Source: a virus
Direction: 5' to 3' (one strand)
DNA length: 64,000 bases
IMG/VR virus record: IMGVR_UViG_3300004806_000019
Location: 20,224-84,223 of that record
Positions 15,756-48,098 of the stretch are shown here, piece after piece (position 1 is the stretch's first letter; each line of letters opens with the position of its first letter). The notes beneath the pieces are model-generated. The model was given only the letters and a program-made list of their open reading frames with translations. It did no database searches and had not been told where the DNA came from. Made by a program: the position numbers and the translations under genes.

Positions 15756-16913
15756 ATGACCGCTAAATATTTGAAAGATGGCGAAGGCTTCAAGTTTCCA
15801 ACTGAGTTCGGATTTCGCGGCTCGGCGGAAGGTCGGCATGACGCCAAGCGTCAGCCTGTTATTGATGACCAGGAATATGGAGATGGGTCTTATATTTCTC
15901 GTCAGAAGAGGGCTAAGGGTGGCGACGTTGGTGCGGAGATTCATCCGAAAGAAGATATGAAGGTTCATGGTAGAAACGCTAAGAGTGAGCGATATGCCAA
16001 ACCTGAAGATCGTGATGAGAATGTGTTAGGGACTGAGAAAGAGAACTTCAAATCAGATCCTGATTCTTATAATGAGTATCGTGCTGCTGCTGAAGGTGGT
16101 CGTGCTCATTATGATGTTGGTGGGAATGTTGTTCCGCCTCCTGGTGCTCCTGGTGCTGGATGGCAGGGGCGTTTCCAGGGAGCGCCAATGCAGCGGCCAC
16201 CAATGCCAATGCCGCAACAAGGTGCAATGCCACAGGGCGCAATGCCGCAACGGCCTATGCCTCCCATGGGGCGTCCTATGCCGCAAGGAATGTCACCGCA
16301 GGCTATGCCACAAGGAATGTCACAGCAGGGAATGATGCAGCGTCCAGGCGGAATGCCTCCTGGTATGCCACAGCGTCCTGGTATGCCTCCAATGGGGGCG
16401 CCACAAGGTGGAATGCCGCAAGGTATGCCTTTAGCTAGGGCAAAAGGTGGCCGGATGTGTCGTGCCGATGGTGGGGCCTCTGAGCCTGAAAAGAAAGATG
16501 ATCCAATTTACGATGAGATGATGAGGCAGGATCAGGGTAGCCGGGATCATCAGATTCCTAATCCTGAGAAAAGTTCTCCTGCTGATGGACGGTTGCATCG
16601 TGCAGATGGTGGTCCTGCGGGACAAGAGCCAACTATTTCCATGCCATTATCTACGGCTCAGACAATGGCGCAGAATTTAGTTCAGGCAGGTAAGGCGGCT
16701 GGGCAACGTGCTCAATATGGTATGACAGGTGGTTTGGCTAATACCGCTAGGTTTGGCGCTCAAGGGAATCAAATCCCTCCATCTCACATTGCATTACCTC
16801 CGCAACCGAATGATATTAGCCGCCTAGGCCAGCAAAACACTGGATTAGGCTCCGGAGCACCGGGTAAGCCGGTTGCTATGGCCAAGGGTGGTCACGCAAA
16901 GAAGCGGTATTAA
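15756..16913 (+). CDS. Disordered P/M/Q/G-rich protein with repeated xAxGG motifs
   Basis: AAGGAG SD; PQG/PMG low-complexity block; seven xAxGG-type motifs. Confidence 0.75.
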   Translation: MTAKYLKDGEGFKFPTEFGFRGSAEGRHDAKRQPVIDDQEYGDGSYISRQKRAKGGDVGAEIHPKEDMKVHGRNAKSERYAKPEDRDENVLGTEKENFKSDPDSYNEYRAAAEGGRAHYDVGGNVVPPPGAPGAGWQGRFQGAPMQRPPMPMPQQGAMPQGAMPQRPMPPMGRPMPQGMSPQAMPQGMSQQGMMQRPGGMPPGMPQRPGMPPMGAPQGGMPQGMPLARAKGGRMCRADGGASEPEKKDDPIYDEMMRQDQGSRDHQIPNPEKSSPADGRLHRADGGPAGQEPTISMPLSTAQTMAQNLVQAGKAAGQRAQYGMTGGLANTARFGAQGNQIPPSHIALPPQPNDISRLGQQNTGLGSGAPGKPVAMAKGGHAKKRY

Positions 16914-16932
16914 GAGAAGAAAGGTTAAGGAT

Positions 16933-18036
16933 ATGGTTCATCATCTTAAAGACGGCGAGGACTTTGGCCCTAGCCATTTTTCCAAAGACTTCGGTTTCCA
17001 CGGAAGCTCATCTGGTGTCGGTCCTGGCAAGCATCATTCCAAGGCGACACATCTGCCAGAGCGTCAGAGTCCTTCGGATCTGAGCGCAAAGCATGTTTCC
17101 CCTGGAGACAATACCTACCGCAAAGGTGGTGAAGTCGGTCACGCTCATCCCCATGGCCATCATGTGGTTGAAGTCGAACACCATGAAGATGGTAGTGTTA
17201 CACATCACCATGCTCATGGTGGCATGACCCATCACCATGCAGATGGACACATCTCTCATCACCATGCTCATGGTGGGGAGATCAGCGCCCATGAAGGTCA
17301 TCAAGGACATCATGGCGGTCATTCATCCGTTCATGCTCATCCTCATGGTCATCATGTGACCCATGTAGAGTCTCTGCATGATGGCAGTGAAGTCCATCAT
17401 CATTCTCATGGTGGTTATACGATCCATCATGCTCATGGTGGCGTGTCTCATCACGGCGCTCATGGTGAGACTGCTGGCAATGGTCAGGCTGGCCATGCTC
17501 GTCATACAGAAGCTGAGTATATGCCGAAGGGTAAAAACGGCGGATTTGAGGATGAAGACCAGTATACTGAGTATGAAGCCCATGAGGCCAAGCTCCGTAA
17601 AGGGGGTCAACCGAAGCACGGTAAACACCCTTTTCAGACTGAGGAAGCATACGATGATGGAGAAGAGCATGAAGCGATGAGCGGGAAAGGTTCTTATGCT
17701 CGTGGCGGTCATGCTGGTCATCCTGACTATGCTGAAGATAAGGCGATGATTGAGAAGGGTTTCCGTCAGCATGACGAGCATATGCACGGCGGAAAGCATG
17801 AGCAAATTCATCTGGCTCGTGGTGGTCTTCCTCCTGCGTTACGCGCTGGTAAGCCTCCGATTGGTCAGGCTCCTCGCCCGTCTCGTCAGGTAACTCCTCG
17901 TCAGGCGGTTCCATTAGGTGGGGCGCCGATGGGTGTTGAGCCGAGTGCTGAACCGAATGCTGCCGGGTCCGAACAGGGTATTCCGCAGCTTCGCAAAGGT
18001 GGTCAGGCTCATCATAAGAAGCATCATCGGTATTAA
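16933..18036 (+). CDS. Histidine-rich disordered protein with repeated xxGG motifs; shares termini with the previous gene
   Basis: AAGGA before ATG 16933; LKDGE.F...FGF.GS N-terminus; HAHGG repeats. Confidence 0.8.
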   Translation: MVHHLKDGEDFGPSHFSKDFGFHGSSSGVGPGKHHSKATHLPERQSPSDLSAKHVSPGDNTYRKGGEVGHAHPHGHHVVEVEHHEDGSVTHHHAHGGMTHHHADGHISHHHAHGGEISAHEGHQGHHGGHSSVHAHPHGHHVTHVESLHDGSEVHHHSHGGYTIHHAHGGVSHHGAHGETAGNGQAGHARHTEAEYMPKGKNGGFEDEDQYTEYEAHEAKLRKGGQPKHGKHPFQTEEAYDDGEEHEAMSGKGSYARGGHAGHPDYAEDKAMIEKGFRQHDEHMHGGKHEQIHLARGGLPPALRAGKPPIGQAPRPSRQVTPRQAVPLGGAPMGVEPSAEPNAAGSEQGIPQLRKGGQAHHKKHHRY

Positions 18037-18037
18037 T

Positions 18038-18304
18038 ATGAATGGTCCTGTCTCTCAAGCTCAGATCCAGACACTTCTTGAATGGGCTGACTTCTGGGAC
18101 AGGGCCGTTGATATTGAAGGGAAAGATGAAATTTCCTTTCTTCTTCGCCGGGTAGCAATGAAGATTGCTGGAATTATGGGAGTTGAAAATGCCATACCGG
18201 AGCGAGTCTCAGAAGAGGTTGATGCTTGCATCAGCACACAACAAGAGTTTTGCTCAGAAGGTGGGGATCCCCCAGAAGACAGCAAAGAAGTTCGTGAAAG
18301 ATAG
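18038..18304 (+). CDS. Hypothetical protein
   Basis: ATG just after the previous stop; its 3' half overlaps the next gene. Confidence 0.4.
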   Translation: MNGPVSQAQIQTLLEWADFWDRAVDIEGKDEISFLLRRVAMKIAGIMGVENAIPERVSEEVDACISTQQEFCSEGGDPPEDSKEVRER

Positions 18305-18386
18305 TTCGGGACAAGACACTTCAAATCTTCCTGAACGTGTGGAAAAATGCTCTGGCGGGACTGCTTCCCGTCCTTTCAGGTGGTGA
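18189..18386 (+). CDS. Small basic phage protein (MP..S..Q.R.M...AHN..FA.KVGIPQ type)
   Basis: GGGAG SD; motif recognisable from phage morphogenesis regions. Confidence 0.7.
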   Translation: MPYRSESQKRLMLASAHNKSFAQKVGIPQKTAKKFVKDSSGQDTSNLPERVEKCSGGTASRPFRW

Positions 18387-18389
18387 GAT

Positions 18390-18692
18390 ATGGCGACTCT
18401 TTATATTACTGAGGTATCTGCCCTTGGATATGACATGACTCTTGGAACAGTCCCGGCTCCGAGAGTTCCTGCACTTGCTGAACAAGCTGTTCCCATTACA
18501 GGGGCATCTGTTCAAAGTAATCCATTTAATGTCTCCACCAGTATAATTCTTGTGAATACAGACTCTGCCTGTTCGTTGGCGTTTGGCCCAAATCCATTGG
18601 CTCAAATAACAGCGCATCGTTTGGGGGCAAACGAGACTCGGTTTTATTCGGTCATTCCTGGCCAATGCCTTGCTGTTATTGCAAATATGTAA
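18390..18692 (+). CDS. Small virion structural protein
   Basis: MATLYITE start; AFG.NP.A motif. Confidence 0.7.
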   Translation: MATLYITEVSALGYDMTLGTVPAPRVPALAEQAVPITGASVQSNPFNVSTSIILVNTDSACSLAFGPNPLAQITAHRLGANETRFYSVIPGQCLAVIANM

Positions 18693-18706
18693 TCGGAGTA
18701 AAAGAT

Positions 18707-19372
18707 ATGATGGGTGGTTCCTCTCCTCCGAATGCACAAGCGATTGACGGGTTTATCTCTCTCGTAAATGTTCTTAGCGATCCTGACGGTGTTAAGAAGA
18801 CAGTGGCCCAATTAGCTGAAGCTAAGAAGGCGCATGATACTTCTGCAAAGGTTGCTAAAGACGCTCATGCAAAGGCGATTGCAAAGGCGCGTGAGGTTGA
18901 TGCAAAGGTTTCCGATCTTGAAAAGCGGGAGAAGGCTCTTCAGGAATCATTGGCACGACACCTTGAAGATAAAGCTTCTTTGGAAGCTGCCCGTAAGACG
19001 CATGATGCGTTGATGGCTGCACATAACCAGCATGTTCAGAATCTTCATTCTCAGATCTCAGGGCAGAATCAGAATATGGTTCTGGCTCTGGAGGAAGAGA
19101 AGCGGAAGGTTGCTGAACTTACGGCGGCTTTAGAGCAAGAGCGTATGGAAGTTGCGCGTCAGGCTTCTGAGCTTGCTCGTCGCAGTAACGATATGCTGGC
19201 TCAACATACTCTTATGCAGAGTTCGGTAGATCAGCAGCTTAAAGAAGCTGCTAATAAAATGGATGAAGTAAATTCAAGATTGTCTGCATTGGAAAAGCGG
19301 GAGTCTCTGGTTTCTGCAAAGGAAGCAGATCTTCAGCTTAAACATAGCAAATTGCGCGACATTCTTAGTTAG
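18707..19372 (+). CDS. Coiled-coil protein
   Basis: GGAG SD; continuous heptad A/E/K/L/Q composition. Confidence 0.7.
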   Translation: MMGGSSPPNAQAIDGFISLVNVLSDPDGVKKTVAQLAEAKKAHDTSAKVAKDAHAKAIAKAREVDAKVSDLEKREKALQESLARHLEDKASLEAARKTHDALMAAHNQHVQNLHSQISGQNQNMVLALEEEKRKVAELTAALEQERMEVARQASELARRSNDMLAQHTLMQSSVDQQLKEAANKMDEVNSRLSALEKRESLVSAKEADLQLKHSKLRDILS

Positions 19373-19382
19373 GAGATGGTTA

Positions 19383-19823: not shown

Positions 19824-19867
19824 TGATATGATATTCCTCATTGGATTAAATTACCTGTGAGGAAAAA

Positions 19868-22592: not shown

Positions 22593-22595
22593 AAA

Positions 22596-23807: not shown

Positions 23808-23813
23808 TTTATT

Positions 23814-34100: not shown

Positions 34101-34395
34101 CTGGGGGTATAATAACTTAGGTCAGTTAGGTTTAGGGAATCGGACTTATTATTCAAGTCCTAAACAAGTTGGCGTTTTAACGAATTGGTCAAGCGTTGCT
34201 TGTGGCGGAAGGTTTACGACGACCATTAAAACTGACGGAACCTTGTGGGCATGGGGTCAAAATGCCTATGGTCAATTAGGGCTCGGAAACATTACGAATT
34301 ATTCTTCTCCAAAGCAAATCGGAGCTTTAACTAATTGGTTAAAAGTCGCTTGTGGTGGATATACTACCATCGCCACCTTTGGGGTAATGACGTAA
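31174..34395 (+). CDS. RCC1-repeat protein, 21 blades (3 x 7-bladed propellers), probable receptor-binding protein
   Basis: 21 copies of an approximately 50-aa DG.LW.WG.N..GQLGLGN.T.YSSPKQ.G.LTNW repeat, with Pro-rich linkers after blades 7 and 14. Confidence 0.9.
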   Translation: MSGVTSALLWGGKAPAAVGLLAWGNNSYGQLGLGNTTYYSSPKQVGALTNWSSIVGGAYHGVSIKSDGTLWAWGLNQYGQLGLGNRTYYSSPKQIGALTNWSKVACGGRFTTAIKTDGTLWTWGFNNNGQLGLGNRTYYSSPKQIGALTNWLKVACGYYHTIAIKTDGTLWTWGLNQYGQLGLGNITNYSSPKQVGLLTNWSSCAGGQSHTIAIKTDGTLWTWGWNIFGQLGLGNITNYSSPKQVGLLTNWSSCAGGHYHIVAIKTDGTLWSWGRNNFGQLGLGNITNYSSPKQVGLLTNWSSCSGGQYHTVAIKTDGTLWTWGWNIFGQLGLGNITYYSSPKQVGSLTSWVKVACGFNQTLAIGRPVPVGLMSWGYNGSGQLGLGNTTYYSSPKAVGQLTNWSKIATGNTFVAIKTDGTLWVGGWNNNGQLGLGNITYYSSPKQVGALTNWSSVACGQSSTAAIKTDGTLWSWGGNQYGQLGLGNTTSYSSPKQVGGLTNWLALACGEYFAIATKTDGTLWAWGQNNSGQLGLGNRTHYSSPKQIGALTNWLSVACGNYYVLSIKTDGSLWAWGQNNYGQLGLGNQTYYSSPKQVGGLTNWLKAVPGGGYFAIATKTDGTLWAWGNNRYGSLGLGNITNYSSPKQIGALTNWLKVACGSYHVLSIKTDGSLWAWGLNNYGQLGLGNITNYSSPKQVGSLTTWQNVACGHFSVLATIVPVSPGLAAWGQNNYGQLGLGNRTYYSSPKQVGALTNWSSIAGGISHVVSIKSDGTLWAWGANNNGQLGLGNRTYYSSPKQVGVLTNWSKVACGYLSTMAIKTDGTLWAWGQNALGQLGLGTITNYSSPKQIGALTNWLKVACGYYHTIAIKTDGTLWTWGYNYYGQLGLGNITYYSSPKQVGLLTNWSSCAGWQYFTVATKTDGTLWTWGQNAYGQLGLGNITNYSSPKQVGALTNWSSIAGGISHVVSIKSDGTLWSWGYNNLGQLGLGNRTYYSSPKQVGVLTNWSSVACGGRFTTTIKTDGTLWAWGQNAYGQLGLGNITNYSSPKQIGALTNWLKVACGGYTTIATFGVMT
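31230..34375 (+). repeat. Approximately 150-bp coding tandem repeat array
   Basis: Identical or near-identical DNA blocks, e.g. 33421/34021, 33961/34261, 31801/32101. Confidence 0.9.
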
Positions 34396-34413: not shown

Positions 34414-36189
34414 ATGAACAAGACACTGCATTTCCTTAGTGGTATCCCCAGAAGTGGGAGCACTGTGTTAGCCGCCATTCTTAATCAAAACCCGCTAACC
34501 CATGTCTCTACCACCTCTGGCCTAGTACACGCCTTGGATGGGCTTGCGAATACGTGGCACTCAGGTCCACTTCTTGTAGACAAAGACCCGGATCATAAGC
34601 AGCTTTGCGCGGCTATGCGGGGCGTGATTGACAATTTCTACACCGATACCGACAAGCCCGTCATTATCGACAAGTCAAGAGGGTGGCCGATACCGATTAT
34701 TATGGGGGCGATGACGCAAGTGCTTGGGAGAAAGCCTCGTATCATTGCAACGGTCAGGTCGATCCCAGATTGCGCGGCGTCTTTCATTCGGGTTGCTAAA
34801 CCCCAAGATCTGGACAAGTTCATCGCTGACGGTCAGTTGATGGAGCATCTGAAGGCGGCTTACATCTCTCTGCAAGAGGGCTGGCAGGCTGCACCAGAGA
34901 ACTTCCTGATTGTTGAATATGAAGACCTGTTGGCTGATCCGAAAGAGGTCTTGAACAGGGTCCATGCTTTCCTTGGGCTTCCTGACTTCACCTATGACTT
35001 TGAGAATATCGACGGGGAGCCTGTTAAGGAAGACGACGAGAACCTTCACGGCTATGCTGGGATGCACGACATTAAGCCGAAGCTGGAACACCAGCATAAG
35101 CAGCATCCGAGAGATGTCCTGAAGGAGCATTATGGGAGCTTCTGCCAGCCTGAGTTCTGGTTGGATAAGCCCAGGACGATCCCTGACATCTCTGATCTTG
35201 ACCTCCAGCTTGTGGCGTCACGGACAGGGGACTTTGAAGAGGGTTGGCGTCTGGCGCAGAAGATGGAACGGGAGATCCCGAATAACCATCGTGCGGCTTT
35301 CAACCGTGGCTGGTATGCGCTTCGACAGGGCAAGATCCAAGAGGGCTATAAGCTGATGGAGCGCGGCAGATATGTACAAGTCTTTGGAGATCCGCCACCG
35401 GATGCGCCAACGAAGCCTTGGGACGGTCTGGCGAAGGGCATTGTGCTATTGAACCTTGAGCATGGGCTAGGTGATCAGATCCACCAGATCCGCTTTGCCA
35501 AGCATATTGCCAAACGGGCTGGTCGGTGCGTTGTGTCTTGCGCGGGTCAATTGGCGTCCTTGTTTGTGGATGTTGAGGGGGTTTCTGCTGTCGTCCAGAA
35601 AGAGGCCAACTTCGGTATCTACCATGACTTCTACGTCCAGGGGATGAGTGCAATCCTGCCGCTTGGGTTTGAACTGCCTGACATTACGGGTGAGGCTTAT
35701 ATCAGGAAGCCGAATGTCATTCGTGGCAAGAAGTTCCGCATTGGCCTGCGCTGGCTTGGTTCCACTCGCTTTGAGCCGGATCATGTGAAGAGGTTCCCCC
35801 ATGAACTGCTGTTCAATGCGGTCAAGGACATTCCTGACGTTGAGTTCGTAAGCCTCCAGAGGGATGAGGGTGCCGAGCATCGCCCCTATTGGTGCCGTGA
35901 GGTTCCGCTTCAGTCTTGGGAGGATACGCGCAATGCTGTCGCCTCCTGTGACTTGGTGATTTCGTCCTGCACCTCTATCTCTCACTTGTCAGCAGCGATG
36001 GGCGTTGAGACTTGGGTTATCACGCCAATCATGCCATACCACTTATATGCGCTTGATGGCGAGAAGACTCCTTACTATGACCATATGCGCCTGTTCAGGC
36101 AGGAAGTGTTTGGGGAGTGGGAGCATCCCTTCATCAACATAAACAAACGACTGATGGAACGGTTCAGTTCCAAGATGGCAGCGGAATAG
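34414..36189 (+). CDS. Sulfotransferase - degenerate TPR - GT-B (GT9-like) fusion
   Basis: PAPS-binding SGIPRSGSTVL, DKSR.W, R......AS, YEDL; then EHGLGDQI...RF, IGLRW.G, TSISHLSAAMG, TPYY..MRLFRQ. Confidence 0.85.
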   Translation: MNKTLHFLSGIPRSGSTVLAAILNQNPLTHVSTTSGLVHALDGLANTWHSGPLLVDKDPDHKQLCAAMRGVIDNFYTDTDKPVIIDKSRGWPIPIIMGAMTQVLGRKPRIIATVRSIPDCAASFIRVAKPQDLDKFIADGQLMEHLKAAYISLQEGWQAAPENFLIVEYEDLLADPKEVLNRVHAFLGLPDFTYDFENIDGEPVKEDDENLHGYAGMHDIKPKLEHQHKQHPRDVLKEHYGSFCQPEFWLDKPRTIPDISDLDLQLVASRTGDFEEGWRLAQKMEREIPNNHRAAFNRGWYALRQGKIQEGYKLMERGRYVQVFGDPPPDAPTKPWDGLAKGIVLLNLEHGLGDQIHQIRFAKHIAKRAGRCVVSCAGQLASLFVDVEGVSAVVQKEANFGIYHDFYVQGMSAILPLGFELPDITGEAYIRKPNVIRGKKFRIGLRWLGSTRFEPDHVKRFPHELLFNAVKDIPDVEFVSLQRDEGAEHRPYWCREVPLQSWEDTRNAVASCDLVISSCTSISHLSAAMGVETWVITPIMPYHLYALDGEKTPYYDHMRLFRQEVFGEWEHPFININKRLMERFSSKMAAE

Positions 36190-36922: not shown

Positions 36923-38515
36923 ATGAAGCTTGGAAAACTGCCTGCCGTTGTTGATCCGAAAGTCCCGGTATTTTCCAGAGCTTGCACTCCTCCTGTCCCT
37001 CCGGTAACGGCTGATTGGTGTTCAAAGGTCGCAGACTGGCCTTTGGATAAGAATGACACGGTGGGGGACTGCACGATTGCGGCGGCTCAACACTTGATCC
37101 AGGCATGGACGACTTATGCCGGGAACCCGGTGATAGTGTCTGAGGCTGACGTGTTAGCAGCGTATTCTGCGATCTCTGGATATAACGGGACGCCTGCGAC
37201 GGACGTTGGGTGTGTTGAGTTATCGGTTCTGAAATATTGGCAGGCGACGGGGATTGGGGGCCATAAGATTAACTCGTTTGCGGCTCTTAACATTGCCAAC
37301 CTGAATGAGATCAAGGCTGCGATTAATTGGTTCGGGGGAATTTATATCGGGGTGAGGTTGCCGATTTCGGCACAGACGCAACCGGCTGTCTGGGATGTCG
37401 TTCCGGGTTCAACGGGGATACCTGGATCGTGGGGAGGACATGCTGTTTGTGTCCAGTCTTATGATGCGACAGGCATAACCGTCATCTCGTGGGGCAAGAC
37501 GATCAAGATGACGTGGGCTTTCTGGCTGGCCTATGTTGACGAGGCGTATGCGGTTGTTTCGACGGATTTCTTGAATGCACAGGGTGTTGATCCGCAAGGG
37601 TTGACGCTGGCTAACCTCATCGCTGACGAGGCTCTCCTTGCTGCTAACGTGTCAGGACCGAGTGATGCCCTGGTGACGTTTATCAATGCGGCGACTGCGC
37701 CTTCAAGTGGCGTGGGTGCTTTATTGGCTCCTAACCTTCTTCTGACTGCCGCGCCTGAGATGGCTCTTGGCGGGATTAACTTCCCTATCTTGGCGGGTGG
37801 GACTCAGGTTGATGGCGTGACGGCGGTTCAGGCTGGGACGAGGTATGCGCTTGGGTTGCTGTCCACTCCCTATATGTGCAGCGGATATCTTGGGTACATG
37901 TCAGGATGGAGCGGCGGTCAGGCGACGATAGCTTATGGGAACAACCAGTTTGCGAGTCAGGTGTTTGCGCCTGACTTTACGACGACGGTTCTTGCTAATA
38001 GCGCGGGTGGTCTGGTGATCGTTGGTACGTCTATAGTTGGCGTGATGATCACGACAAGTTCGGCTTATATCTTTAGCTCTGCCGACATTGACCAGATAGA
38101 GAGTTTCATCACGACCCTGACGGGGGCGGCTCCTGCGATAGTCAGGTTATATGGCGGGATCTTAGGGCGTTACCCGACGATAGCTGAGAACCAGTGGTAC
38201 ACGAAGAACCTGTATCTTCCTGCCTATAACGCGTCACCAGGATCTGCGTTGCATGTGCTGGGAAACAATCTTGGTATTCTTTACTGCTTTACGCACTCGC
38301 CAGAGTTCATGGGTGGGAGTAGTGGTTATGGCAAAGACCCAGTAGCCTATGTGACATATTTGTACCAGAATGCCTTGGGGCGCTCTCCTTCTACTAGTGA
38401 GCTTACTTGGTATGTGGCACAATTAAAAAGCCGTGATCTCTGGGATGTTGTCGCACTGAACATCACTCAGAGCGATGAGGCCAGAGCTTACAACGGTGTT
38501 TGGAATCAGCAATAA
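36923..38515 (+). CDS. Papain-like (C1-type) cysteine peptidase + degenerate trypsin-like domain + DUF4214-like domain
   Basis: ND.VGDC, GGHAV, ISWG; ALLAPNLLLTAAP; YVTYLYQNALGRSPS..EL.WY. Confidence 0.7.
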   Translation: MKLGKLPAVVDPKVPVFSRACTPPVPPVTADWCSKVADWPLDKNDTVGDCTIAAAQHLIQAWTTYAGNPVIVSEADVLAAYSAISGYNGTPATDVGCVELSVLKYWQATGIGGHKINSFAALNIANLNEIKAAINWFGGIYIGVRLPISAQTQPAVWDVVPGSTGIPGSWGGHAVCVQSYDATGITVISWGKTIKMTWAFWLAYVDEAYAVVSTDFLNAQGVDPQGLTLANLIADEALLAANVSGPSDALVTFINAATAPSSGVGALLAPNLLLTAAPEMALGGINFPILAGGTQVDGVTAVQAGTRYALGLLSTPYMCSGYLGYMSGWSGGQATIAYGNNQFASQVFAPDFTTTVLANSAGGLVIVGTSIVGVMITTSSAYIFSSADIDQIESFITTLTGAAPAIVRLYGGILGRYPTIAENQWYTKNLYLPAYNASPGSALHVLGNNLGILYCFTHSPEFMGGSSGYGKDPVAYVTYLYQNALGRSPSTSELTWYVAQLKSRDLWDVVALNITQSDEARAYNGVWNQQ

Positions 38516-40063: not shown

Positions 40064-40076
40064 ATGGTATTGTGAA

Positions 40077-41884: not shown

Positions 41885-41932
41885 GAGAGTTTTTGGGTAT
41901 TATCCGAAAGTTATGCTTGGAAGGCGCGGCAT

Positions 41933-44395
41933 ATGCAGTCCACCGATTTTCAGAACTTGACACAACCATCCATGGATATGGTGGATTTGGTTCGTCATGC
42001 TTATGAGAAAGGTGGGAAAGCAGAGAGGGAATCGCAGAAGGAAAAAGGCAAGAAGAGTGGCGTGACGATTGCGATTGTCCTTCCTCAGATGCCTCATCCT
42101 GCTGTGCTTGGTGCGTTATCCCAGCCGTTGCTAGAGCAACATATGGCGGAGCAACAAGGCCAGGAACAACCGAAGCAGATGGCCAAGGGCGGAGGGGTCC
42201 GTAAGCACTTTGCCAGCGGTGGTGCAAACGATCCGACATCTGCCACTAACCTTGCCGGGGATGCCATAACAGGTGGGATGGCTGTATATAGTGGATCAAC
42301 AGGTGCCGGTGCTGGTTTAGGTAATTGGATTGATACAAGCCAACTTGGTCAATCCGTTGGTTTAGGGACATCAACCGCTCCATCTGCTGATGCCATTGCT
42401 TCTGCCGCAGCAGCCCCAAATGCTGATATTGGTCCTTCATTAGCAGATGCAACATTGCCATCGGTTCCAACGGAAACTGGAGCGGCTCTATCTTCAGCCA
42501 TGGCTGATGCCGGTTGGGGTGGGATTGGAACTGTCATTGGAAATGTTGCCGGTCTTCCTTCTAATCAAAACCCTCTTGTAAATGCAGGAATGAATATTGC
42601 CGGGTCATTGGGTGGCGCGGCATTAGGTTCGGCTGCTGGTGGGGCTTTGGGAGGAACAATTGCGGGGATGGAGGCAGGGAGTGTTCTTGGCCCCATCGGA
42701 GCTATTGGCGGGGCTTTAATTGGAACACTTGCAGGGTCATTGTTCGGCCCTAATCCCTCTGTAGGTCCAGATGCCAATACAACCATATCTGGTTGGGATT
42801 CAACCAATAACCAACCTACCTATGCTCAGGGCGCCGGAAATGGCGGAAGCTCTGCAATCTCAAATGCTTTGATGCAGCAAGCATATCAAAACGCAAACAA
42901 TTATATCAGTAAATTAGGTGGGCAGATTACAAACACGGCTCCATTGTCTACGGGGTATTTCAAGGGGAAATACTTTGTATCAGACACAAATGCCGGTGGT
43001 AATGCTACATATACTGGAAATCAGTTTTCCGATCCAAATGCTGCTATTCAAGATCTTACTCAAAGGATCGTTGAGGCAAGCGTTATTAATGGTCTGACGC
43101 CAACTCAATTGGCTGGCATCGGAAATTATGCAACTCCGACATCGCCAAATTATTCAGGGGATTATACGTCAGGTCCATTAAAGGGAGGCACAATAGATGC
43201 GTATAATCCAGCAACATATGCCAATGGAGTTCCGTCTATTGCGTCTTTAACGAATGGGGCAAATACCAGTGGTGGGAACGGAAGTTCTGGTGGAACTGGG
43301 GGAACTGGGGCTGGTGCGACGGCTGCAAATCCAACGTTAGATCAGCAGATAACAAATGACTATTTAAGCACTCTAGGACGCGCTCCATCATCGTCAGAGT
43401 TGTCTTATTATGAGTCTGATCCCAATTATGCGGCTCATATCGCTGCCTCACCGGAAGCATCTAGTTTAACGTCTAATATTCAAAAGACGTTTACAGCCGA
43501 TACAGGGCGTCCAGCAGATGCTGCAACGTTGGCATATTACGCAGCGGATCCGAACTATGCCGCTCATATCGCCGCCGCTCCTGAATCTCAAAATTATACA
43601 GCGAATGCGACAACGATTAATAATGCAGCAAATACTGTCCTTGGACAGCCTGCCGATCCGGCAACAGTAGCGGCATTAAATACAGCCCTTAATAATGGTA
43701 CATTAACGACTGCCGGTATTCCTGCTGCGTTAAAGGCAACCTCTCAATATACTAATAATGTCAATGCTGGAACGGTCGGTCCTCAAGGGAACTTTGCTCC
43801 TAGTTATACGGTTCCTTCTCAGGGCAGGGACGCCTATACGGTAGCTACGGCTAATTCAGCGGCTAATTCGCTGGTCCCAACATGGGGTCAGAATGCAGCA
43901 ATTGGTGCGGCAGATGCTCTTGGCGTTAATCATTCTCAGATTGGTGCCTTGAATGGGTACATGCCCTACACGCCTCCGCCTGGAACGGGTGCTGGAGCTT
44001 TTGCGCCATCGAGTCCTTTAAACGGAGGCGTTGCTGCTCCGCCTACTCCGTCAGCATCTAATCCATTAGGTGCTTTGAATAGCGCGAATCCTTCAGGGAC
44101 ATATTCAGGCCCTGCCTTACCTAGCACAGGAACTCCTGTAGATCTTGGTGCTGGAGTGACGGGTAGTAGTGGCTCCTATAGCCCTCCTAGCACAGAAAAT
44201 CCTGTGGCTCTTAATAGGACGGTAACGGGAGGCGTTCCTGCTAGTCCTGCATATTTACGGGCTGTATCTGGTCAGAGCACCCCTGTTGGATATGGAACTC
44301 CGATGGTGTTGCCTGATTCGACATTGATTGACCCGATTACCGGATTGCCGATCACGGCTGCATCTGGTGCGTTAAACCAAGCGGCTGGAGCGTAG
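41933..44395 (+). CDS. Ejection/internal virion protein with glycine zipper and three DUF4214-like repeats
   Basis: GG.LG..AG zipper; LGRAPS..EL.YY and TGRPAD...LAYY repeats. Confidence 0.65.
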   Translation: MQSTDFQNLTQPSMDMVDLVRHAYEKGGKAERESQKEKGKKSGVTIAIVLPQMPHPAVLGALSQPLLEQHMAEQQGQEQPKQMAKGGGVRKHFASGGANDPTSATNLAGDAITGGMAVYSGSTGAGAGLGNWIDTSQLGQSVGLGTSTAPSADAIASAAAAPNADIGPSLADATLPSVPTETGAALSSAMADAGWGGIGTVIGNVAGLPSNQNPLVNAGMNIAGSLGGAALGSAAGGALGGTIAGMEAGSVLGPIGAIGGALIGTLAGSLFGPNPSVGPDANTTISGWDSTNNQPTYAQGAGNGGSSAISNALMQQAYQNANNYISKLGGQITNTAPLSTGYFKGKYFVSDTNAGGNATYTGNQFSDPNAAIQDLTQRIVEASVINGLTPTQLAGIGNYATPTSPNYSGDYTSGPLKGGTIDAYNPATYANGVPSIASLTNGANTSGGNGSSGGTGGTGAGATAANPTLDQQITNDYLSTLGRAPSSSELSYYESDPNYAAHIAASPEASSLTSNIQKTFTADTGRPADAATLAYYAADPNYAAHIAAAPESQNYTANATTINNAANTVLGQPADPATVAALNTALNNGTLTTAGIPAALKATSQYTNNVNAGTVGPQGNFAPSYTVPSQGRDAYTVATANSAANSLVPTWGQNAAIGAADALGVNHSQIGALNGYMPYTPPPGTGAGAFAPSSPLNGGVAAPPTPSASNPLGALNSANPSGTYSGPALPSTGTPVDLGAGVTGSSGSYSPPSTENPVALNRTVTGGVPASPAYLRAVSGQSTPVGYGTPMVLPDSTLIDPITGLPITAASGALNQAAGA

Positions 44396-44399
44396 AAAG

Positions 44400-45689
44400 A
44401 TGGCTGAAGATCTTTTATCAGGTTGGCTATCCCCGGATATCACGTCATCTTTTGACGGTAGCTCTCTTGATACATCAAGTCTTTTTACTGGTTCTCCAGG
44501 CTTGGCGAGTTTTGACTCATCATCTCTTCCAGGGGCTTCTGGTATAGATTATTCAGTTGGTGGCGTTGGATCGTCGGGAACGATAGGTCTTGGAAGTGGT
44601 TTGCCTGTTGGGGCAGGGTCTTCAGTTGGGGCTGGAGCAATACCAGGAGATGTGTTTTTACCTGCTGGACAAACGATTAATGACCAAAATCTTAGCATTA
44701 TTAATTCGTTTTCTGAGGGCAATTACACACTTGATAAGAATGGTTTGCTGTCCGGAAAAGGCGCTTTAAATGGAATGTCCCCTGAAGAGGGGATGGCGCA
44801 GCTAGGTCTTGCTCCGCAGGCTCCAAGTGGCGGTATTCTTAGTGGAGTTCTAGGAACCAGTACTCCCTATGCTAATGACACTTCTGGGTTTTCTATCGGA
44901 AAATCAGGAACAGTGACAGGCGCTCCAGATGCTGCATTAGGGGCGGCAGCAACGAAAGGTCTTGTTTCAGCTTCTTCTTCCGGGGCTTCCGCAGATAATT
45001 CAGGAAATCCATCAAACAGTTCAACTGATAGCAATAGCGGCAAAGGGGCCTTGAACAGCATATTTGGTGGTGGGAATGGAATTAATGTTGGAACGGGTGC
45101 TTTAGCCCTTGGGGCTTTGGCTGGACTTGCTGCCGCCCTTGGAGGGTCGCCTAAACAAAACTCCGTATCTCAAACTGCAAACTCCGTCGCTAATGCAAAC
45201 GCTGCTACACAGACTCCTCAGTGGAATGCTCAATTGAGTAATAAGCTTTACACTCCTCCCGTTCCTAATCCTAACTATGTCGCAGGAACGGCGGCGAATA
45301 ATTATAAGAGTGTTGGTCTTCCCACTATGGGGGGTGGCTTTAATTTTGCTCATGGTGGAGCTTTAAGCAACCCAAGGATATATACGACTGACCCTGACCA
45401 TAATGAAGCTGTTCATGGTGGTCCGATGTTTGATAGTCGGAAAGGTGATCGTTATGTCCAAGGCCCCGGAGACGGTCAAGAGGATGCAATTCCTGCTGCA
45501 TTGAGTGATGGAGAGTACGTTGTCGATGCCCAGACCACTTCAATCCTAGGAGGGGGGTCGAATAAGAAGGGTGCCGAGCTACTCGATAAGTTTAGGGATG
45601 AAGTCCTGAAGAAAGCTCATAGCCAGAAGTTTTTACCAAAGGGACTTGGTAAAGGTGCATTGAGCAAATTAGCAAGTGGAGCGGCATAA
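44400..45689 (+). CDS. Ejection/internal virion protein with C-terminal GPGDG..D.IPA.LSDGEYV domain
   Basis: S/G-rich, one hydrophobic helix, tape-measure-associated motif at the C-terminus. Confidence 0.7.
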   Translation: MAEDLLSGWLSPDITSSFDGSSLDTSSLFTGSPGLASFDSSSLPGASGIDYSVGGVGSSGTIGLGSGLPVGAGSSVGAGAIPGDVFLPAGQTINDQNLSIINSFSEGNYTLDKNGLLSGKGALNGMSPEEGMAQLGLAPQAPSGGILSGVLGTSTPYANDTSGFSIGKSGTVTGAPDAALGAAATKGLVSASSSGASADNSGNPSNSSTDSNSGKGALNSIFGGGNGINVGTGALALGALAGLAAALGGSPKQNSVSQTANSVANANAATQTPQWNAQLSNKLYTPPVPNPNYVAGTAANNYKSVGLPTMGGGFNFAHGGALSNPRIYTTDPDHNEAVHGGPMFDSRKGDRYVQGPGDGQEDAIPAALSDGEYVVDAQTTSILGGGSNKKGAELLDKFRDEVLKKAHSQKFLPKGLGKGALSKLASGAA

Positions 45690-46960
45690 TGTCAGGCATA
45701 GGTAGCTTATTAACTGGCTCTCCCACTCCTCCGCAGCCAACAAGTGCTGATGCAACGTCATCATTTCCTGTATGGCTACAAGATTATTTGTCCAATATGG
45801 TCAGTGGGGCGAATAGCCTCATCGATACCACCCCTATGTCTGTTTATGGAGATGCAGCGAGTGGCTCTCCGTCTTTGGTGGCAACTCCTTCAGCCAACAC
45901 ACAGGCTGCATGGCAAAGTGCTGTAAACAATCAAGGTAGTTGGAAACCAGCTTTAGCAGATGCTGGTGGTCTAACAATGTCAGCAGCTTCCCCGATATCT
46001 GCTGACACAATGGGTTCTAATACTAACGCATATAACACAGATGCTTTAGGAAGTGTTGGTCAGTACGGAAGTGCAATGCAGGGCCAGACTTTGGGGAATC
46101 AATCTGCATATTCTGGAAATACCACAGGAAATCTTATCAATTCAGGAAATCAAATTACCGGGGCACTGAACAATGCTGTTCAGAGTAACGTTGGTGGGTA
46201 TTTAAACCCTTATACAGAGAACGTTATAGGTGGCATTGAGAGTTCAATGAACACCAATCTGATGCAGAATGTTCTACCTCAGATTCAAGATCGGATGGTT
46301 CAATCTGGTCAGGTTGCTTCTCCACAGCAGATGCAAGCTGAAAACAATGCTGTTTATCAAAACCAACAAGCTATTGGTCAAGCGATTGCCCAACCGTTGC
46401 AGTCTGGATATACAACGGCTCTTGGTGCCGCTCAGAACTCTGCAAACAATGCGTTTGGATATGGGAACCAAGGCGCTTTGTCATCTTTGACCACAGGTGC
46501 GGGTCAAGCTGGTCAGGCAGTGTCAAGCGCCCAAACGGGAGCAAGCGCCGGGAACCAGATGTCTCAGGCAGAACAGGCTGCTGCCCTTCAGGGTGGTTCT
46601 CAGATGGGGCAGATTGCAAGCCTCAATTCCAATCTAAATGCTTCAGATGTTGGACAGCTTGCAGCAGCAGGTGCAGCGCAGGATTCAGTAAACCAAGCGA
46701 ATATCAATGCGACGGCAAATCTGTACAACACAAGCCAACAGATGCCATATCAGCAGCTTGGATTTATGTCCAACTTGATCCGTGGTCAGAATATGCCAAC
46801 GAACGTACAAACGACTGCCTTGAGTTATCAACCTCAGTCTATGTACTCACCGTCTCCTTTATCCACGGCCGTTGGAACAACGGCTTTGGCCAGTGGGTTA
46901 GGGTTAGCTAAAGGTGGTAAGGTTAAGCCTAGGGGGGCTTTGTCCCTCTATGCAGCGTGA
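45689..46960 (+). CDS. DNA-transfer/pilot-type ejection protein
   Basis: Q/A/S/N-rich; YLNPYT.NV and PYQQL.F motifs. Confidence 0.7.
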   Translation: MSGIGSLLTGSPTPPQPTSADATSSFPVWLQDYLSNMVSGANSLIDTTPMSVYGDAASGSPSLVATPSANTQAAWQSAVNNQGSWKPALADAGGLTMSAASPISADTMGSNTNAYNTDALGSVGQYGSAMQGQTLGNQSAYSGNTTGNLINSGNQITGALNNAVQSNVGGYLNPYTENVIGGIESSMNTNLMQNVLPQIQDRMVQSGQVASPQQMQAENNAVYQNQQAIGQAIAQPLQSGYTTALGAAQNSANNAFGYGNQGALSSLTTGAGQAGQAVSSAQTGASAGNQMSQAEQAAALQGGSQMGQIASLNSNLNASDVGQLAAAGAAQDSVNQANINATANLYNTSQQMPYQQLGFMSNLIRGQNMPTNVQTTALSYQPQSMYSPSPLSTAVGTTALASGLGLAKGGKVKPRGALSLYAA

Positions 46961-46970
46961 GGGACGGAAA

Positions 46971-48098
46971 ATGGTTGGGATGTTAAACGCAATTGCTGGC
47001 AGATATCATTATGATGAAGGCGGCTCTACTGGAGATGACGACCAGCAGAGAGGTCCACTCTCCACTTATGACCCGTCTGTTCTTGGCAATATGCAGAATG
47101 CAGTCCTAGGGGGAACACCTGAATCTGCCTTGCAGAAATATAAGGATGCCCAATCAGCACAGGAAGCAGCGGCCCAAGCAAAGAAGGATCGTATCCAACA
47201 GGCAATGGATACACTGAGTGCAAATCGCTCCAATCTCCCGATGATGGCTTTTGGCGCAGGGATGATGAAGCCAACCCACACTGGCACGTTTGGCGAAACA
47301 CTTAGTAATGCAATGAGCGATACAATCCCCGCCATTGATAAGCAGCGTCAATATGAGGCGCAGCTTCAGCAGATGGGGGTTTCAGCGGCTGACGTTGATC
47401 TGGCCCAGAAGACTAAAGCGGCCCAAGATTGGACAGACCGGATGAAGCTTGGGTTGACTACGGCAGAAACAAACCAGAGATTGCAGCAAAGTGATCAGCA
47501 ACATCAGGATTCGCTTAATCTTCAGAGGCAGCAGCTTCAAGGACAAAAAGGATATTATGATTATTTGAAGCAAGAAGACCCTGACGAAGTTTCCTCATGG
47601 GTGCCATTGTATGAAAAACCGGGCGTTCAAAAGATGGACCCTGTAAGTGGCTTGCCGTTATATCAAGGCATGAGCAAAACAGAGAAGCCCGTCGGTCAGC
47701 CTCGGATTGTTAGAAGTGATGATTTGGATAGCAGCAATACAAGTTCCCGTGCAGATCCGATTATTTCGCAGTATAATTCGGCTCAGAAGGCGCTTGATGC
47801 TGCTATTAGCAAAAGGTACGTTATATTAGGATCAAATCCTAAAGCCGATACGAAAATGTTAGATGAGCAAATCGCTCGTCAAAGAGAGCTTGTTGAACAA
47901 TTGAGAGTTGCGGCTACGACAAGGTTGGGAGGCTCAACCACAACGCAGCCTGTATCGCCGGATCCCTTAGCGGCAGGATTAGGGGGAAACGGAAGTGTTC
48001 CTTCTAAGAAGCCAAACATTGATCCTGGCATATATTCTCCTTCTCAAGAAGCAGCTAGGTCTGGAGCATTTCCCGCCCCACAGCCAGGAATTGATTGA
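46971..48098 (+). CDS. Ejection/internal virion protein
   Basis: GAGGG SD; FG.GM..PT.TG.FGE motif; Q-rich helices. Confidence 0.65.
   Translation: MVGMLNAIAGRYHYDEGGSTGDDDQQRGPLSTYDPSVLGNMQNAVLGGTPESALQKYKDAQSAQEAAAQAKKDRIQQAMDTLSANRSNLPMMAFGAGMMKPTHTGTFGETLSNAMSDTIPAIDKQRQYEAQLQQMGVSAADVDLAQKTKAAQDWTDRMKLGLTTAETNQRLQQSDQQHQDSLNLQRQQLQGQKGYYDYLKQEDPDEVSSWVPLYEKPGVQKMDPVSGLPLYQGMSKTEKPVGQPRIVRSDDLDSSNTSSRADPIISQYNSAQKALDAAISKRYVILGSNPKADTKMLDEQIARQRELVEQLRVAATTRLGGSTTTQPVSPDPLAAGLGGNGSVPSKKPNIDPGIYSPSQEAARSGAFPAPQPGID

What the first reader, a model, noticed from the sequence alone, without database searches (positions are those of the whole stretch)
15756..48098. A shared x-[AR]-x-GG peptide code across at least seven virion proteins
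Seen: RAKGG x2, AAEGG, YDVGG, RADGG x2, MAKGG (gene 15756); YRKGG, LRKGG x2, YARGG, LARGG, HAHGG x3 (16933); KCSGG (18189); YEKGG, MAKGG, FASGG (41933); FAHGG (44400); LAKGG near the C-terminus (45689); YDEGG near the N-terminus (46971). The motifs punctuate otherwise disordered sequence. I found no canonical prohead protease in the head module. Inference: a common cleavage or capsid-loading signal that turns these proteins into peptide-releasing polyproteins. LRKGG/LARGG resemble ubiquitin-like di-Gly ends. Candidate readers are the GPGDG..LSDGEYV domain, the papain-like peptidase or the JAB domain.
Basis: partly seen in the sequence, partly recalled or inferred. Interest (0 to 1): 0.8.

Follow-up and report, generated by a model that had tools for sequence, protein, structure and literature searches.

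The report
Shared Gly-Gly peptide on phage internal proteins
A short peptide (bulky residue, Ala/Lys/Arg, any residue, Gly-Gly, any residue, Val/Ala) really does recur on several internal proteins of this uncultured 84-kb phage and of many relatives, and it most likely helps these proteins assemble or dock inside the particle rather than marking where they are cut, though no experiment has tested either idea.

Summary
The strings are all there. The real motif, defined from relatives, is narrower and longer than x-[AR]-x-GG: [YMFL]-[A/K/R]-x-G-G-x-[V/A]. Ten canonical copies sit in five of the seven named proteins. KCSGG and YDEGG cannot be told from chance.

- **Composition does not explain it.** Over all 103 ORFs of the genome there are 15 copies against 5.3 expected (0/1000 shuffles).
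- **Relatives show it far more strongly.** In 80 related loci, ORFs between the capsid gene and the adaptor-like gene hold 149 copies against 2.7 expected; core head genes hold 2 against 3.7.
- **Carriers.** They are very basic "array" proteins (the family of 15756 and 16933), polyvalent cargo proteins, and the first ejection protein.
- **Link to one module.** In the ejection protein the motif is a fixed flank of the GPGDG..LSDGEYV module (109/120 homologues against 2.9 expected).
- **Candidate readers.** The papain-like and JAB domains are absent from 4/4 complete motif-bearing relatives.
- **Protease.** None was found.

Docking or assembly is favoured over cleavage, and neither is tested. 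The scan noted the same motif earlier on an HMO-2011-type phage (e1-3537959).

The parts
15756..16913 (+). Pro/Gln/Gly/Met-rich paralogue of the post-capsid 'array' protein family. It has one canonical copy (MAKGG, nt 16878-16892) eight residues before the stop, plus degenerate R-A-[KD]-GG copies.
   Evidence: Translation. It shares the N-terminal LKDGE..FGF.GS and the C-terminal ..KGG.A.KK..RY with 16933. The alignment shows invariant GG columns. pI 9.5.
16933..18036 (+). His-rich (18% His) member of the array family with five canonical copies (nt 17116-17130, 17593-17607, 17695-17709, 17812-17826, 17989-18003) and H-[AS]-H-GG hairpin-like repeats.
   Evidence: Orthologues in L001, L002 and L014 keep the GG columns and a DKAMIKK..QH core. 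In relatives, 26 distinct array proteins carry at least 6 copies, with pI 9.9-10.6 and net charge +26 to +46.
41933..44395 (+). First ejection-module protein, Gly/Ala-rich with glycine-zipper-like segments. Two canonical copies lie near the N-terminus (MAKGG nt 42179-42193, FASGG nt 42209-42223). YEKGG at residue 24 is non-canonical.
   Evidence: In relatives, the equivalent of this protein and 44400 form one fused protein.
44400..45689 (+). Ejection protein whose C-terminal 80-110 residues form the conserved GPGDG..IPA.LSDGEYV module (about nt 45448-45689). The motif copy FAHGG (nt 45345-45359) lies 48 residues upstream of the GEYV core.
   Evidence: The module is found in 5/5 complete genomes, in RLK and in 10 of 50,697 phage records. 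The GG of FAHGG is at least 90% conserved in 60 diverse homologues. A motif lies within 70 aa upstream in 109/120 homologues against 2.9 expected. No Pfam family matches.
45689..46960 (+). Gln/Asn/Ser/Ala-rich ejection-module protein with one canonical copy (LAKGGKVK, nt 46904-46918) 14 residues before the stop.
   Evidence: A similar C-terminus (..LAKGGKVKSKC) occurs in L073.
18189..18386 (+). Small basic protein with the N-terminal KS..Q.RLM module. Its KCSGG is not a canonical copy, so membership is doubtful.
   Evidence: phrog_16759. Five of 6 homologues in related loci carry at least one canonical copy, but this one does not.
46971..48098 (+). Coiled-coil-like ejection-module protein. Its YDEGG near the N-terminus is not a canonical copy, so membership is doubtful.
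48095..59863 (+). 3922-aa polyvalent cargo protein (ResIII/Strawberry-notch helicase, methyltransferase, RadC-like JAB motif near residue 2926). It has no canonical copy apart from VREGG inside the methyltransferase region. It was listed as a candidate reader and is rejected as one.
   Evidence: The JAB region (nt 56600-57200) is found in 1/5 complete genomes.
36923..38515 (+). Protein with papain-like Cys/His motifs (read by eye) at the N-terminus and DUF4214 at the C-terminus. It was a candidate reader and is rejected as a general one.
   Evidence: The N-domain is found in 1/5 complete genomes, the window's own only.

Best explanation
The motif is a short, protein-level assembly or docking element, [YMFL]-[A/K/R]-x-G-G-x-[V/A], probably a strand-turn-strand.

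Its constant home is the N-terminal flank of the GPGDG..IPA.LSDGEYV module. That module ends the first ejection protein (44400 here) and also occurs in some tape measure proteins. Copies of the same element have spread to other proteins carried inside the particle. These are the very basic 'array' proteins encoded just after the capsid gene (15756 and 16933 here), polyvalent cargo proteins in relatives, and neighbouring ejection proteins (41933 and 45689 here).

I infer that these copies let such proteins bind a common partner during head assembly, so that they are packaged and later leave with the DNA. The partner would be the GEYV module itself or whatever that module's own flank binds.

Shown: the motif, its selection, its carriers, and its linkage to the module.
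Inferred: binding, the identity of the partner, and a role in packaging.
For: 1. Selection acts on the protein, not on composition or DNA.
- Within-protein shuffles do not reproduce the counts.
- Gly codons in 437 copies follow background usage, and only 31/437 contain a Shine-Dalgarno-like core.

2. Both sides of GG are constrained. In 406 non-redundant copies from 80 loci, the second residue after GG is V in 162 and A in 96, the next is enriched in K and H, and position -4 is enriched in K, H and G.

3. No ORF ends at GG. The shortest tail is 2 residues.

4. Carriers are accessory proteins of the virion gene block, not the shell.
- ORFs between the capsid gene and the 25348-homologue: 149 against 2.7 expected.
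- ORFs upstream of the portal gene: 46 against 1.9.
- Core head and tail homologues: 2 against 3.7.
- Minus-strand ORFs, as a control: 4 against 3.6.
- The pre-portal carriers are polyvalent proteins (ART-PolyVal, PcfJ, GP88), a class described as packaged and injected (Iyer et al. 2017, PMC5512222, passages read).

5. Cis linkage to the GEYV module.
- 117/120 near-length homologues carry at least one copy.
- With a query that excludes the motif, 109/120 longer homologues have one within 70 aa upstream against 2.9 expected, at preferred distances of 15-20 and 40-45 aa.
- 24/27 short forms keep it.
- The Nitrincola phage 1M3-16 tape measure protein (1472 aa) has a single copy, lying directly upstream of its GEFV core.

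6. Phyletic association. After excluding the GEYV protein itself, 7 of 9 genomes with the module are enriched and 0 of 6 without it are (Fisher p = 0.007). DSL-LC04 (capsid 39% identical) has both the module and the motif. Equally distant HTVC023P, CRP-902, QDWS535 and MW202785 have neither.

7. Motif positions are orthologously conserved while the sequence between them is not.
Against:
- In 80 loci chosen by the GEYV module, the 1175 neighbouring ORFs are not enriched: 104 against 96.6 expected, and 16 against 17.5 for the longer form. Ejection-module neighbours such as 41933 and 45689 are therefore not general carriers, and the copies in this window could be partly lineage-specific.
- Caulobacter phage RLK has the module but no enrichment elsewhere: whole record 5 against 5.7, and 2 against 1.06. 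Pag-Yong1 is only borderline: 6 against 2.84, with 24/500 shuffles reaching it.
- The largest cargo of this phage, the 3922-aa protein, has no canonical copy outside a folded domain. The motif cannot be the only route into the head.
- The 15 genomes in the association test are related to one another, so p = 0.007 overstates independence.
- That the carriers are in the virion at all is inferred from gene position and family names, not from proteomics.
Confidence: 0.45

Rival explanations
1. Cleavage signal. A phage or host protease cuts after G-G, trimming or fragmenting internal proteins during head maturation or after injection, as adenain does with adenovirus core precursors.
For: - Small residues at the putative P2-P1 suit many Cys proteases. 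This is recalled knowledge of adenain, C39 and deubiquitinases, not tested here.
- Copies lie in low-complexity linkers and, in polyvalent proteins of relatives, between recognised domains. In L067 the copies are at residues 213, 497 and 638, with ART-PolyVal at 30-195 and GP88 at 726-972.
- Iyer et al. 2017 argue that polyvalent proteins are processed.
- The head module holds a conserved 180-aa protein of unknown function (11663-12274; 496 clusters) with near-invariant H84, D95, E134 and H153. It could be an unrecognised enzyme.
Against: - No protease was detected in the head module by Pfam, PHROGs or PDB profiles.
- The papain-like and JAB candidates are absent from 4/4 complete motif-bearing relatives.
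- The strong preference after GG (V or A in 258/406 copies) and the fixed placement as a flank of a folded module are unusual for a pure cleavage site.
- Scaffold-like, portal and capsid proteins, the usual substrates of head proteases, carry none.
- Arrays spaced 9-12 residues apart (77 of 325 spacings) would yield peptides of about 10 residues.
- No orthologue ends at GG.
- Cys86 of the 11663 family is not conserved at 90%.
Confidence: 0.2
2. Intrinsic structural repeat with no dedicated reader. The element is simply a beta-turn unit. In the basic array proteins it would organise Lys/His-rich hairpins that neutralise or bind packaged DNA or metal ions. Its presence in the GEYV flank and elsewhere would reflect common structural grammar rather than a shared signal.
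For: - Array proteins are extremely basic: 26 proteins, pI 9.9-10.6, net charge +26 to +46.
- They are periodic, with spacing peaks at 9-12 and 33-39 residues.
- 16933 carries conserved His-rich hairpin-like units.
- The LSDGEYV core of the module itself resembles the motif pattern (h, small, polar, G, G/E, x, V).
- Hydrophobic-x-x-GG strand-turns also occur in the RCC1 propeller of this window (VACGG x3).
Against: - The same element occurs in acidic contexts (YAEGGLV, FADGGSV, MAEGGSVD) on polyvalent and ejection proteins. Charge neutralisation therefore cannot be its common role.
- The association with the GEYV module across genomes is not expected for generic structural grammar.
- Core folded proteins are depleted, not enriched: 8 against 24.6 expected.
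Confidence: 0.2
3. Chance or composition. Gly-rich disordered proteins throw up x-A-x-GG by accident, and the reader saw a pattern.
For: - Several listed strings (KCSGG, YDEGG, YDVGG, AAEGG) fit no consistent pattern.
- The loose form x[AR]xGG is at expectation outside the named proteins: 25 against 24.5.
- In this genome alone the excess is about ten copies.
Against: - Composition-preserving shuffles never reach the observed counts (0/2000, 0/1000).
- There is 55-fold enrichment in one positional gene class across 80 loci, with controls at expectation.
- GG columns are conserved in orthologues.
- Unrelated control phages are at expectation for the form with V or A after GG: T7 0 against 0.46, VP4B 0 against 0.43.
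Confidence: 0.03

Closest known systems
Capsid targeting sequence (CTS) of phage T4 internal proteins
   Same: A short conserved peptide shared by otherwise diverse proteins that are encapsidated and injected. It is sufficient to load foreign proteins into the head (Rao and Black 2010, PMC3012670, passages read).
   Different: As I recall it, the T4 CTS is a single N-terminal peptide that is removed by the prohead protease. Here the element is internal or C-terminal, often in many copies, has a different sequence, no protease is evident, and packaging dependence is untested.
Adenovirus protease (adenain) sites (M/I/L)XGG-X on core and cement precursors
   Same: A hydrophobic residue followed by G-G on several internal, partly very basic, virion proteins. 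The consensus is recalled, and is also quoted in the scan note seen.
   Different: The hydrophobic residue here is one position further from GG, with A/K/R in between. The side after GG is constrained. No clan CE or other protease was found. Cleavage is unproven.
Encapsulin cargo-loading peptides
   Same: Short Gly-containing peptides that dock cargo onto the inner face of an HK97-fold shell. This is the closest analogy for the proposed way of working, and it is recalled knowledge.
   Different: Those peptides are terminal and usually single, and they bind the shell protein. Here the best-supported partner is an ejection-protein module, not the capsid protein. RLK shares a 77% identical capsid protein yet lacks the spread of the motif.
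Polyvalent proteins of phages and conjugative elements, and the P1 Dar loading system (Iyer et al. 2017, PMC5512222)
   Same: The giant protein of this window and the pre-portal proteins of relatives carry the diagnostic domains: Strawberry-notch helicase and methyltransferase here, ART-PolyVal, PcfJ and GP88 in relatives. They are the cargo class on which the motif sits in relatives.
   Different: The passages I read discuss embedded peptidases and DarA/Hdf-type loading, not a recurrent Gly-Gly peptide. This window's own polyvalent protein lacks a canonical copy.
Double-glycine leaders (C39 peptidase) and ubiquitin-like LRGG tails read by JAB or deubiquitinase enzymes
   Same: A G-G preceded by hydrophobic and basic residues.
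   Different: There is no N-terminal leader architecture, no beta-grasp domain and no ABC-transporter C39 domain. The JAB-like region here is of the RadC type, which Iyer et al. consider unlikely to hold a ubiquitin tail, and it is not conserved in relatives.

Membership tests
T4-type capsid targeting sequence | Single peptide at the extreme N-terminus of the cargo | tested here: not met
   Copies are spread evenly along proteins: 11.6% lie within 30 aa of the N-terminus and 13.8% within 30 aa of the C-terminus, against 11.8% expected. There are up to 12 copies per protein.
T4-type capsid targeting sequence | Necessary and sufficient for encapsidation, and removed by the prohead protease | not testable with these tools
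   Needs virion proteomics and reporter fusions. No prohead protease was found.
Adenain-type cleavage sites | Hydrophobic residue (M/I/L) at P4 with G at P2 | tested here: not met
   The hydrophobic residue is at P5 (Y, M or F in 314 of 406 copies). P4 is K or A in 395 of 406.
Adenain-type cleavage sites | A cognate cysteine protease encoded by the virus | tested here: not met
   No peptidase family appears in Pfam scans of 37 window proteins. The only papain-like candidate (36923-38515, motifs read by eye) is absent from 4/4 complete relatives. Sensitivity is limited because no fold search was possible.
Ubiquitin-like tail plus JAB/deubiquitinase | G-G at the end of a beta-grasp domain, read by a conserved JAB peptidase | tested here: not met
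   Copies sit in low-complexity sequence and are repeated. The JAB-like region is found in 1/5 complete genomes.
Double-glycine leader / C39 | N-terminal 15-30 aa leader ending in GG, with a C39-ABC exporter nearby | tested here: not met
   Positions are internal or C-terminal. No C39 or ABC transporter appears in the Pfam scans.
Encapsulin-like cargo-loading peptide (way of working, not membership) | Peptide binds the inner surface of the HK97-fold shell protein | not testable with these tools
   The capsid protein is Phage_capsid_4 / Mu gpT-like. No solved relative exists. Co-folding was unavailable.
GEYV-module flank (family defined here) | Canonical copy within 70 residues upstream of the ..IPA.LSDGEYV core | tested here: met
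   FAHGG lies 48 residues upstream in 44400. 109/120 homologues meet this against 2.9 expected. G319 and G320 are at least 90% conserved in 60 sequences.
Post-capsid basic array protein family (defined here) | Gene between the capsid and adaptor-like genes, several canonical copies, DKAMIKK..QH core, terminal copy plus a basic tail | tested here: met
   16933 has the position, five copies, the core (EDKAMIEKGFRQHD) and the tail (LRKGGQAHHKKHHRY). 15756 has the position, both termini and one canonical copy. Unlike 26 relatives (pI 9.9-10.6), 16933 is not basic (pI 6.6, 18% His).

The most novel reading that the evidence does not exclude
The motif is a portable 'boarding pass'. A single strand-turn-strand unit would dock in trans, by beta-strand addition, onto the GEYV module of the first ejection protein, which sits on the portal axis. 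Any protein that acquires a copy would then be loaded into the head and leave with the DNA. Basic array proteins with 8-12 copies would cross-link many modules into an internal core. This would be a general, evolvable cargo-loading code for an abundant clade of aquatic short-tailed phages. Because the module also occurs in tape measure proteins, the same interaction might operate in long-tailed phages.
Probability: 0.2. Interest if true: 0.8.

Novelty: new variant of a known kind. Interest (0 to 1): 0.55.

Why it matters
How short-tailed phages choose which proteins to enclose with their DNA is largely unknown outside T4 and P1. This applies to ejection proteins, anti-defence polyvalent enzymes and basic core proteins alike.

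A seven-residue element that marks exactly these accessory proteins would give a concrete handle on the question.

- It predicts which uncharacterised proteins travel in the particle.
- It names one uncharacterised module as the likely partner.
- If docking is confirmed, it could be used to load foreign proteins into phage heads.

If it proves to be a cleavage site instead, it would point to an unrecognised protease in a head module that now appears to have none.

Tried and rejected
- **Nucleotide-level signal (internal Shine-Dalgarno or start sites):** rejected. Gly codons follow background usage, and SD-like cores occur in 31/437 copies.
- **Papain-like peptidase or JAB domain as reader:** rejected as general readers.
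- **Prohead protease hunt:**
  - 10479-11666 looks like a coiled-coil scaffold; only designed helical bundles match it in the PDB.
  - 11663-12274 has no Pfam, PHROG-function or PDB match.
  - A profile search gave 496 clusters, all stand-alone proteins of about 180 aa, so no informative fusion. The ESM Atlas gave only unnamed viral clusters.
- **crAss cargo protein lead for the GEYV module:** Atlas score 0.78, below the tool's own threshold. It was not borne out: 0 of 60 homologues hit PF25725.
- **Solved structures:** none for the capsid or portal proteins.
- **Literature:**
  - A string search for six motif variants found 35 papers. The 25 listed, judged by title, concern other subjects.
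  - Searches on HTVC023P, HMO-2011 with cryo-EM, and Caulobacter podoviruses found no virion proteomics for this group in the listings.
  - PMC10386132 was searched for cleavage and glycine terms with no hits.
  - The motif is not in print within these searches only. Supplementary files were not consulted.
- **GroEL-binding idea:** I considered a likeness to the GroEL-binding loop of GroES, since the phage encodes a GroES-like protein at 10018-10479. I dropped it. The likeness is recalled and partial, and GroES is also present in relatives without the motif.
- **Neighbourhood test around GEYV genes:** negative. It is reported under evidence against.

Full report
**What the window is.**
- The window is bases 20224-84223 of a single 84,223-bp phage contig.
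- The head module reads terminase, portal (2230-4830, phrog_1216), a reversed glycosyltransferase cassette, a GroES-like gene (10018-10479), three conserved genes of unknown function, and then the major capsid protein (12994-13908; Phage_capsid_4 / Mu gpT-like).
- The same GroES-to-capsid order is annotated in Pelagibacter phage HTVC023P and Roseobacter phage CRP-902.
- The nearest cultured relatives by capsid protein are Caulobacter phages GB2A, RW, RLK and KcrB (77% identity). HTVC023P-type phages are at about 41%.
Of those stretches, 599 were confirmed as relatives, and the 80 kept are 77-86% identical.
- The ejection module runs 41933-59863 and ends in a 3922-aa polyvalent protein with a Strawberry-notch helicase and a methyltransferase.

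**Checking the observation.**
- All listed strings are present.
- In the seven named proteins the loose pattern x[AR]xGG occurs 24 times against 8.1 expected from within-protein shuffles (0/2000). The other 96 ORFs sit at expectation, 25 against 24.5. GG itself is not in excess, 63 against 53.5, with 144/2000 shuffles reaching it.
- To remove the selection bias I scored all 103 ORFs. h[AKR][polar]GG gives 15 against 5.30 (0/1000). With V or A two residues after GG it gives 7 against 1.30 (0/1000), and 6 of those 7 fall in 15756, 16933, 41933 and 45689.

**What the motif is.**
- In 80 capsid-centred loci of relatives there are 990 plus-strand ORFs and 2500 isolated GG sites. The residues around GG are biased: Y, H, M and F at -3, K and A at -2, K at -1, and V two residues after.
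- I then looked at 406 non-redundant matches to the five-residue core. Among positions the search did not constrain, the second residue after GG is V in 162 and A in 96. The third is enriched in K and H. Position -4 is enriched in K, H and G.
- The motif is therefore about eight residues long and is constrained on both sides of GG.
- No ORF ends at GG; the shortest tail is 2 residues. Copies are not concentrated at termini.
- Gly codons in the motif match background usage, and SD-like cores are rare at 31/437, so selection acts on the protein.
- By this definition the window holds ten canonical copies in five proteins. KCSGG (18189), YDEGG (46971), YDVGG and AAEGG are not members.

**Who carries it.**
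- I sorted the ORFs of the 80 loci by position.

| ORF class | Observed (form with V/A after GG) | Expected |
|---|---|---|
| Between the capsid gene and the 25348-homologue | 149 | 2.7 |
| Upstream of the portal gene | 46 | 1.9 |
| Homologues of this window's core head/tail genes | 2 | 3.7 |
| Minus-strand ORFs (control) | 4 | 3.6 |

- For the five-residue core, the core-gene class holds 8 against 24.6 expected, so it is depleted.
- The post-capsid carriers form one family. It has an MGQFKPM.. N-terminus, a DKAMIKKAFKQHD core, and 6-12 copies with spacing peaks at 9-12 and 33-39 residues.
- Twenty-six distinct members have pI 9.9-10.6 and net charge +26 to +46.
- Genes 16933 and 15756 are divergent paralogues of this family. 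They share both termini, and their GG columns are invariant in an alignment with three orthologues, while the sequence between varies with large indels.
- The pre-portal carriers are polyvalent proteins (ART-PolyVal, PcfJ, GP88). Iyer et al. 2017 describe this class as packaged and delivered with the DNA (passages read).
- Their copies are acidic (YAEGGLV, FADGGSV), so charge is not the common denominator.

**The link to the GPGDG..LSDGEYV module.**
- The C-terminal module of 44400 has no Pfam family.
- It is found in 5/5 complete genomes examined, in RLK, and in 10 of 50,697 phage records. Those ten are four Caulobacter phages, three cyanophage records, one spring-water genome, and two records of Nitrincola phage 1M3-16.
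- At least 497 IMG/VR stretches encode it.
- Of 120 near-length homologues, 117 carry at least one copy.
- I repeated the search with a query region that excludes the motif. Of 120 longer homologues, 109 have a copy within 70 residues upstream of the GEYV core against 2.9 expected, at 15-20 or 40-45 residues.
- 24 of 27 short forms keep it. The two glycines are at least 90% conserved in 60 diverse homologues.
- In the Nitrincola tape measure protein, the only copy in 1472 residues sits directly upstream of ..IPAWLSNGEFV.
- The motif is therefore an integral flank of this module. The module's own LSDGEYV core follows the same h-small-polar-G-x-x-V pattern.

**Which reader?**
- The papain-like N-domain of 36923-38515 shows Cys and His motifs that I read by eye. 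Pfam sees only DUF4214 there.
- The RadC-like JAB region of the giant protein was located by pattern search.
- Each of these two is found in the window's own genome only, among five complete genomes. The other four carry the motif. They cannot be the common reader.
- The GEYV module tracks the motif instead. After excluding the GEYV protein itself, seven genomes with the module are enriched: own, G001-G004, MW202545 and DSL-LC04. Each has at most 5/500 shuffles reaching the observed count.
- RLK and Pag-Yong1 have the module but are not enriched.
- None of six genomes without the module is enriched: HTVC023P, CRP-902, QDWS535, MW202785, T7 and VP4B.
- The Fisher test gives p = 0.007, after a hand correction for Pag-Yong1.
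- The genomes are related, so this is suggestive rather than proof. DSL-LC04 is the most independent point: its capsid protein is 39% identical, and it has both the module and the motif.

**Results against my reading.**
- In 80 loci centred on GEYV genes, the 1175 other ORFs show no excess: 104 against 96.6, and 16 against 17.5. Ejection-module neighbours are therefore not general carriers. In relatives the spread of the motif lies mainly in the head-module accessory genes.
- RLK has the module but no spread.
- The window's own giant cargo protein has no canonical copy.

**Cleavage versus docking.**
- Against cleavage:
  - no protease was found in the head module;
  - the residues after GG are constrained;
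  - the motif is fixed as a flank of a folded module;
  - it is absent from scaffold-like, portal and capsid proteins;
  - arrays are too dense to yield sensible products;
  - no orthologue ends at GG.
- For cleavage:
  - Gly-Gly suits many cysteine proteases (recalled);
  - copies lie in linkers between domains of polyvalent proteins;
  - an unexplained conserved 180-aa head protein exists (11663-12274).
- I put docking or assembly at about 0.45, cleavage at 0.2, a reader-less structural or charge role at 0.2, and chance at 0.03. The remainder is unassigned.

**Comparison with what is known.**
- The nearest functional analogue is the T4 capsid targeting sequence (PMC3012670, passages read).
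- Other analogues, all recalled, are encapsulin cargo-loading peptides, adenain sites on adenovirus core precursors, double-glycine leaders and ubiquitin-like tails.
- The motif fails the defining features of each of the four that I could test. It is not N-terminal or single. The hydrophobic residue is at P5, not P4. There is no beta-grasp domain and no leader. No conserved cognate enzyme was found. For encapsulin peptides the defining feature, binding to the shell protein, could not be tested.
- No paper in the searchable library uses these strings for a phage.
I did not examine that genome.
- What is new here is the anchoring of the motif to the GEYV module, the exclusion of two proposed readers, the definition of the basic array family, and the negative neighbourhood result.

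**Verdict.** This is a real, selected, clade-wide peptide element on accessory internal proteins. The function is untested. I class it as a new variant of a known kind, a shared tag on packaged proteins, with interest 0.55.

Noticed in passing
11663-12274 (+): A conserved head-module protein of about 180 aa between the scaffold-like gene and the capsid gene. It forms 496 clusters at 50% identity, all stand-alone. G104, Y105 and E134 are invariant, and H84, W87, D95 and H153 are near-invariant. There is no Pfam or PDB match. It could be an unrecognised enzyme or assembly factor.
   Followed up: partly
10018-10479 (+): A GroES-like co-chaperonin gene (phrog_3188) just upstream of the scaffold-like gene. 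The same placement is annotated in HTVC023P, CRP-902, Pag-Yong1, QDWS535, DSL-LC04 and two Manatee Spring genomes.
   Followed up: partly
16933-18036 (+), residues about 70-175: Repeated His-rich units (HPHGH.V..VE..DG.V.HHH.HGG.T.HH.DG) are conserved in orthologues in L001, L002 and L014. They suggest a metal- or pH-responsive element inside a virion-module protein.
   Followed up: no
L009, L058, L064, L073, L023, L055, L006, L004, L003 (relatives): Many motif carriers in relatives end in a short basic tail with a C-terminal Cys (..KKGGRC, ..KGGRAC, ..KVKSKC, ..ECSCHG). The window's two paralogues end in ..RY instead.
   Followed up: no
L084, L086, L087 (G002-G004): The N-termini of the fused ejection proteins carry [FM]ARGGLA followed by a conserved GD.[IM]LAHI.P.EA..L...GGSG.INP.TGLPE[YF] module. 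This module is absent from the window's 41933.
   Followed up: no
L111 (Nitrincola phage 1M3-16, tape measure protein): The motif plus GEFV module occurs about 140 residues from the C-terminus of a 1472-aa tape measure protein. The unit is therefore not restricted to short-tailed phages or to proteins stored in the head.
   Followed up: partly
36923-38515 (+): The N-terminus shows papain-like Cys and His motifs (GDC.., GGHAV.., ..SWG, read by eye) fused to DUF4214. It is unique to this genome among five complete relatives, and Pfam does not recognise the peptidase part.
   Followed up: partly
5240-8246 (-) and 34414-36189 (+): There are two TPR glycosyltransferases (GT41-type and GT9-like) on the opposite strand inside the head module, and a sulfotransferase next to a 21-repeat RCC1 protein (31174-34395). 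Other notes of this scan cover these.
   Followed up: no
18189-18386 (+): The small basic protein's N-terminal KS..Q.RLM...H module (phrog_16759) also matches the N-termini of two 'virion structural protein' PHROGs (25121, 22033). It may be a second portable module.
   Followed up: no
L006:380-1198: A 272-aa protein far upstream of the capsid gene in one relative carries an H.H..(13)..S..D JAB-like pattern and ends in YAKGG plus a Cys-containing tail. Pfam finds nothing.
   Followed up: partly
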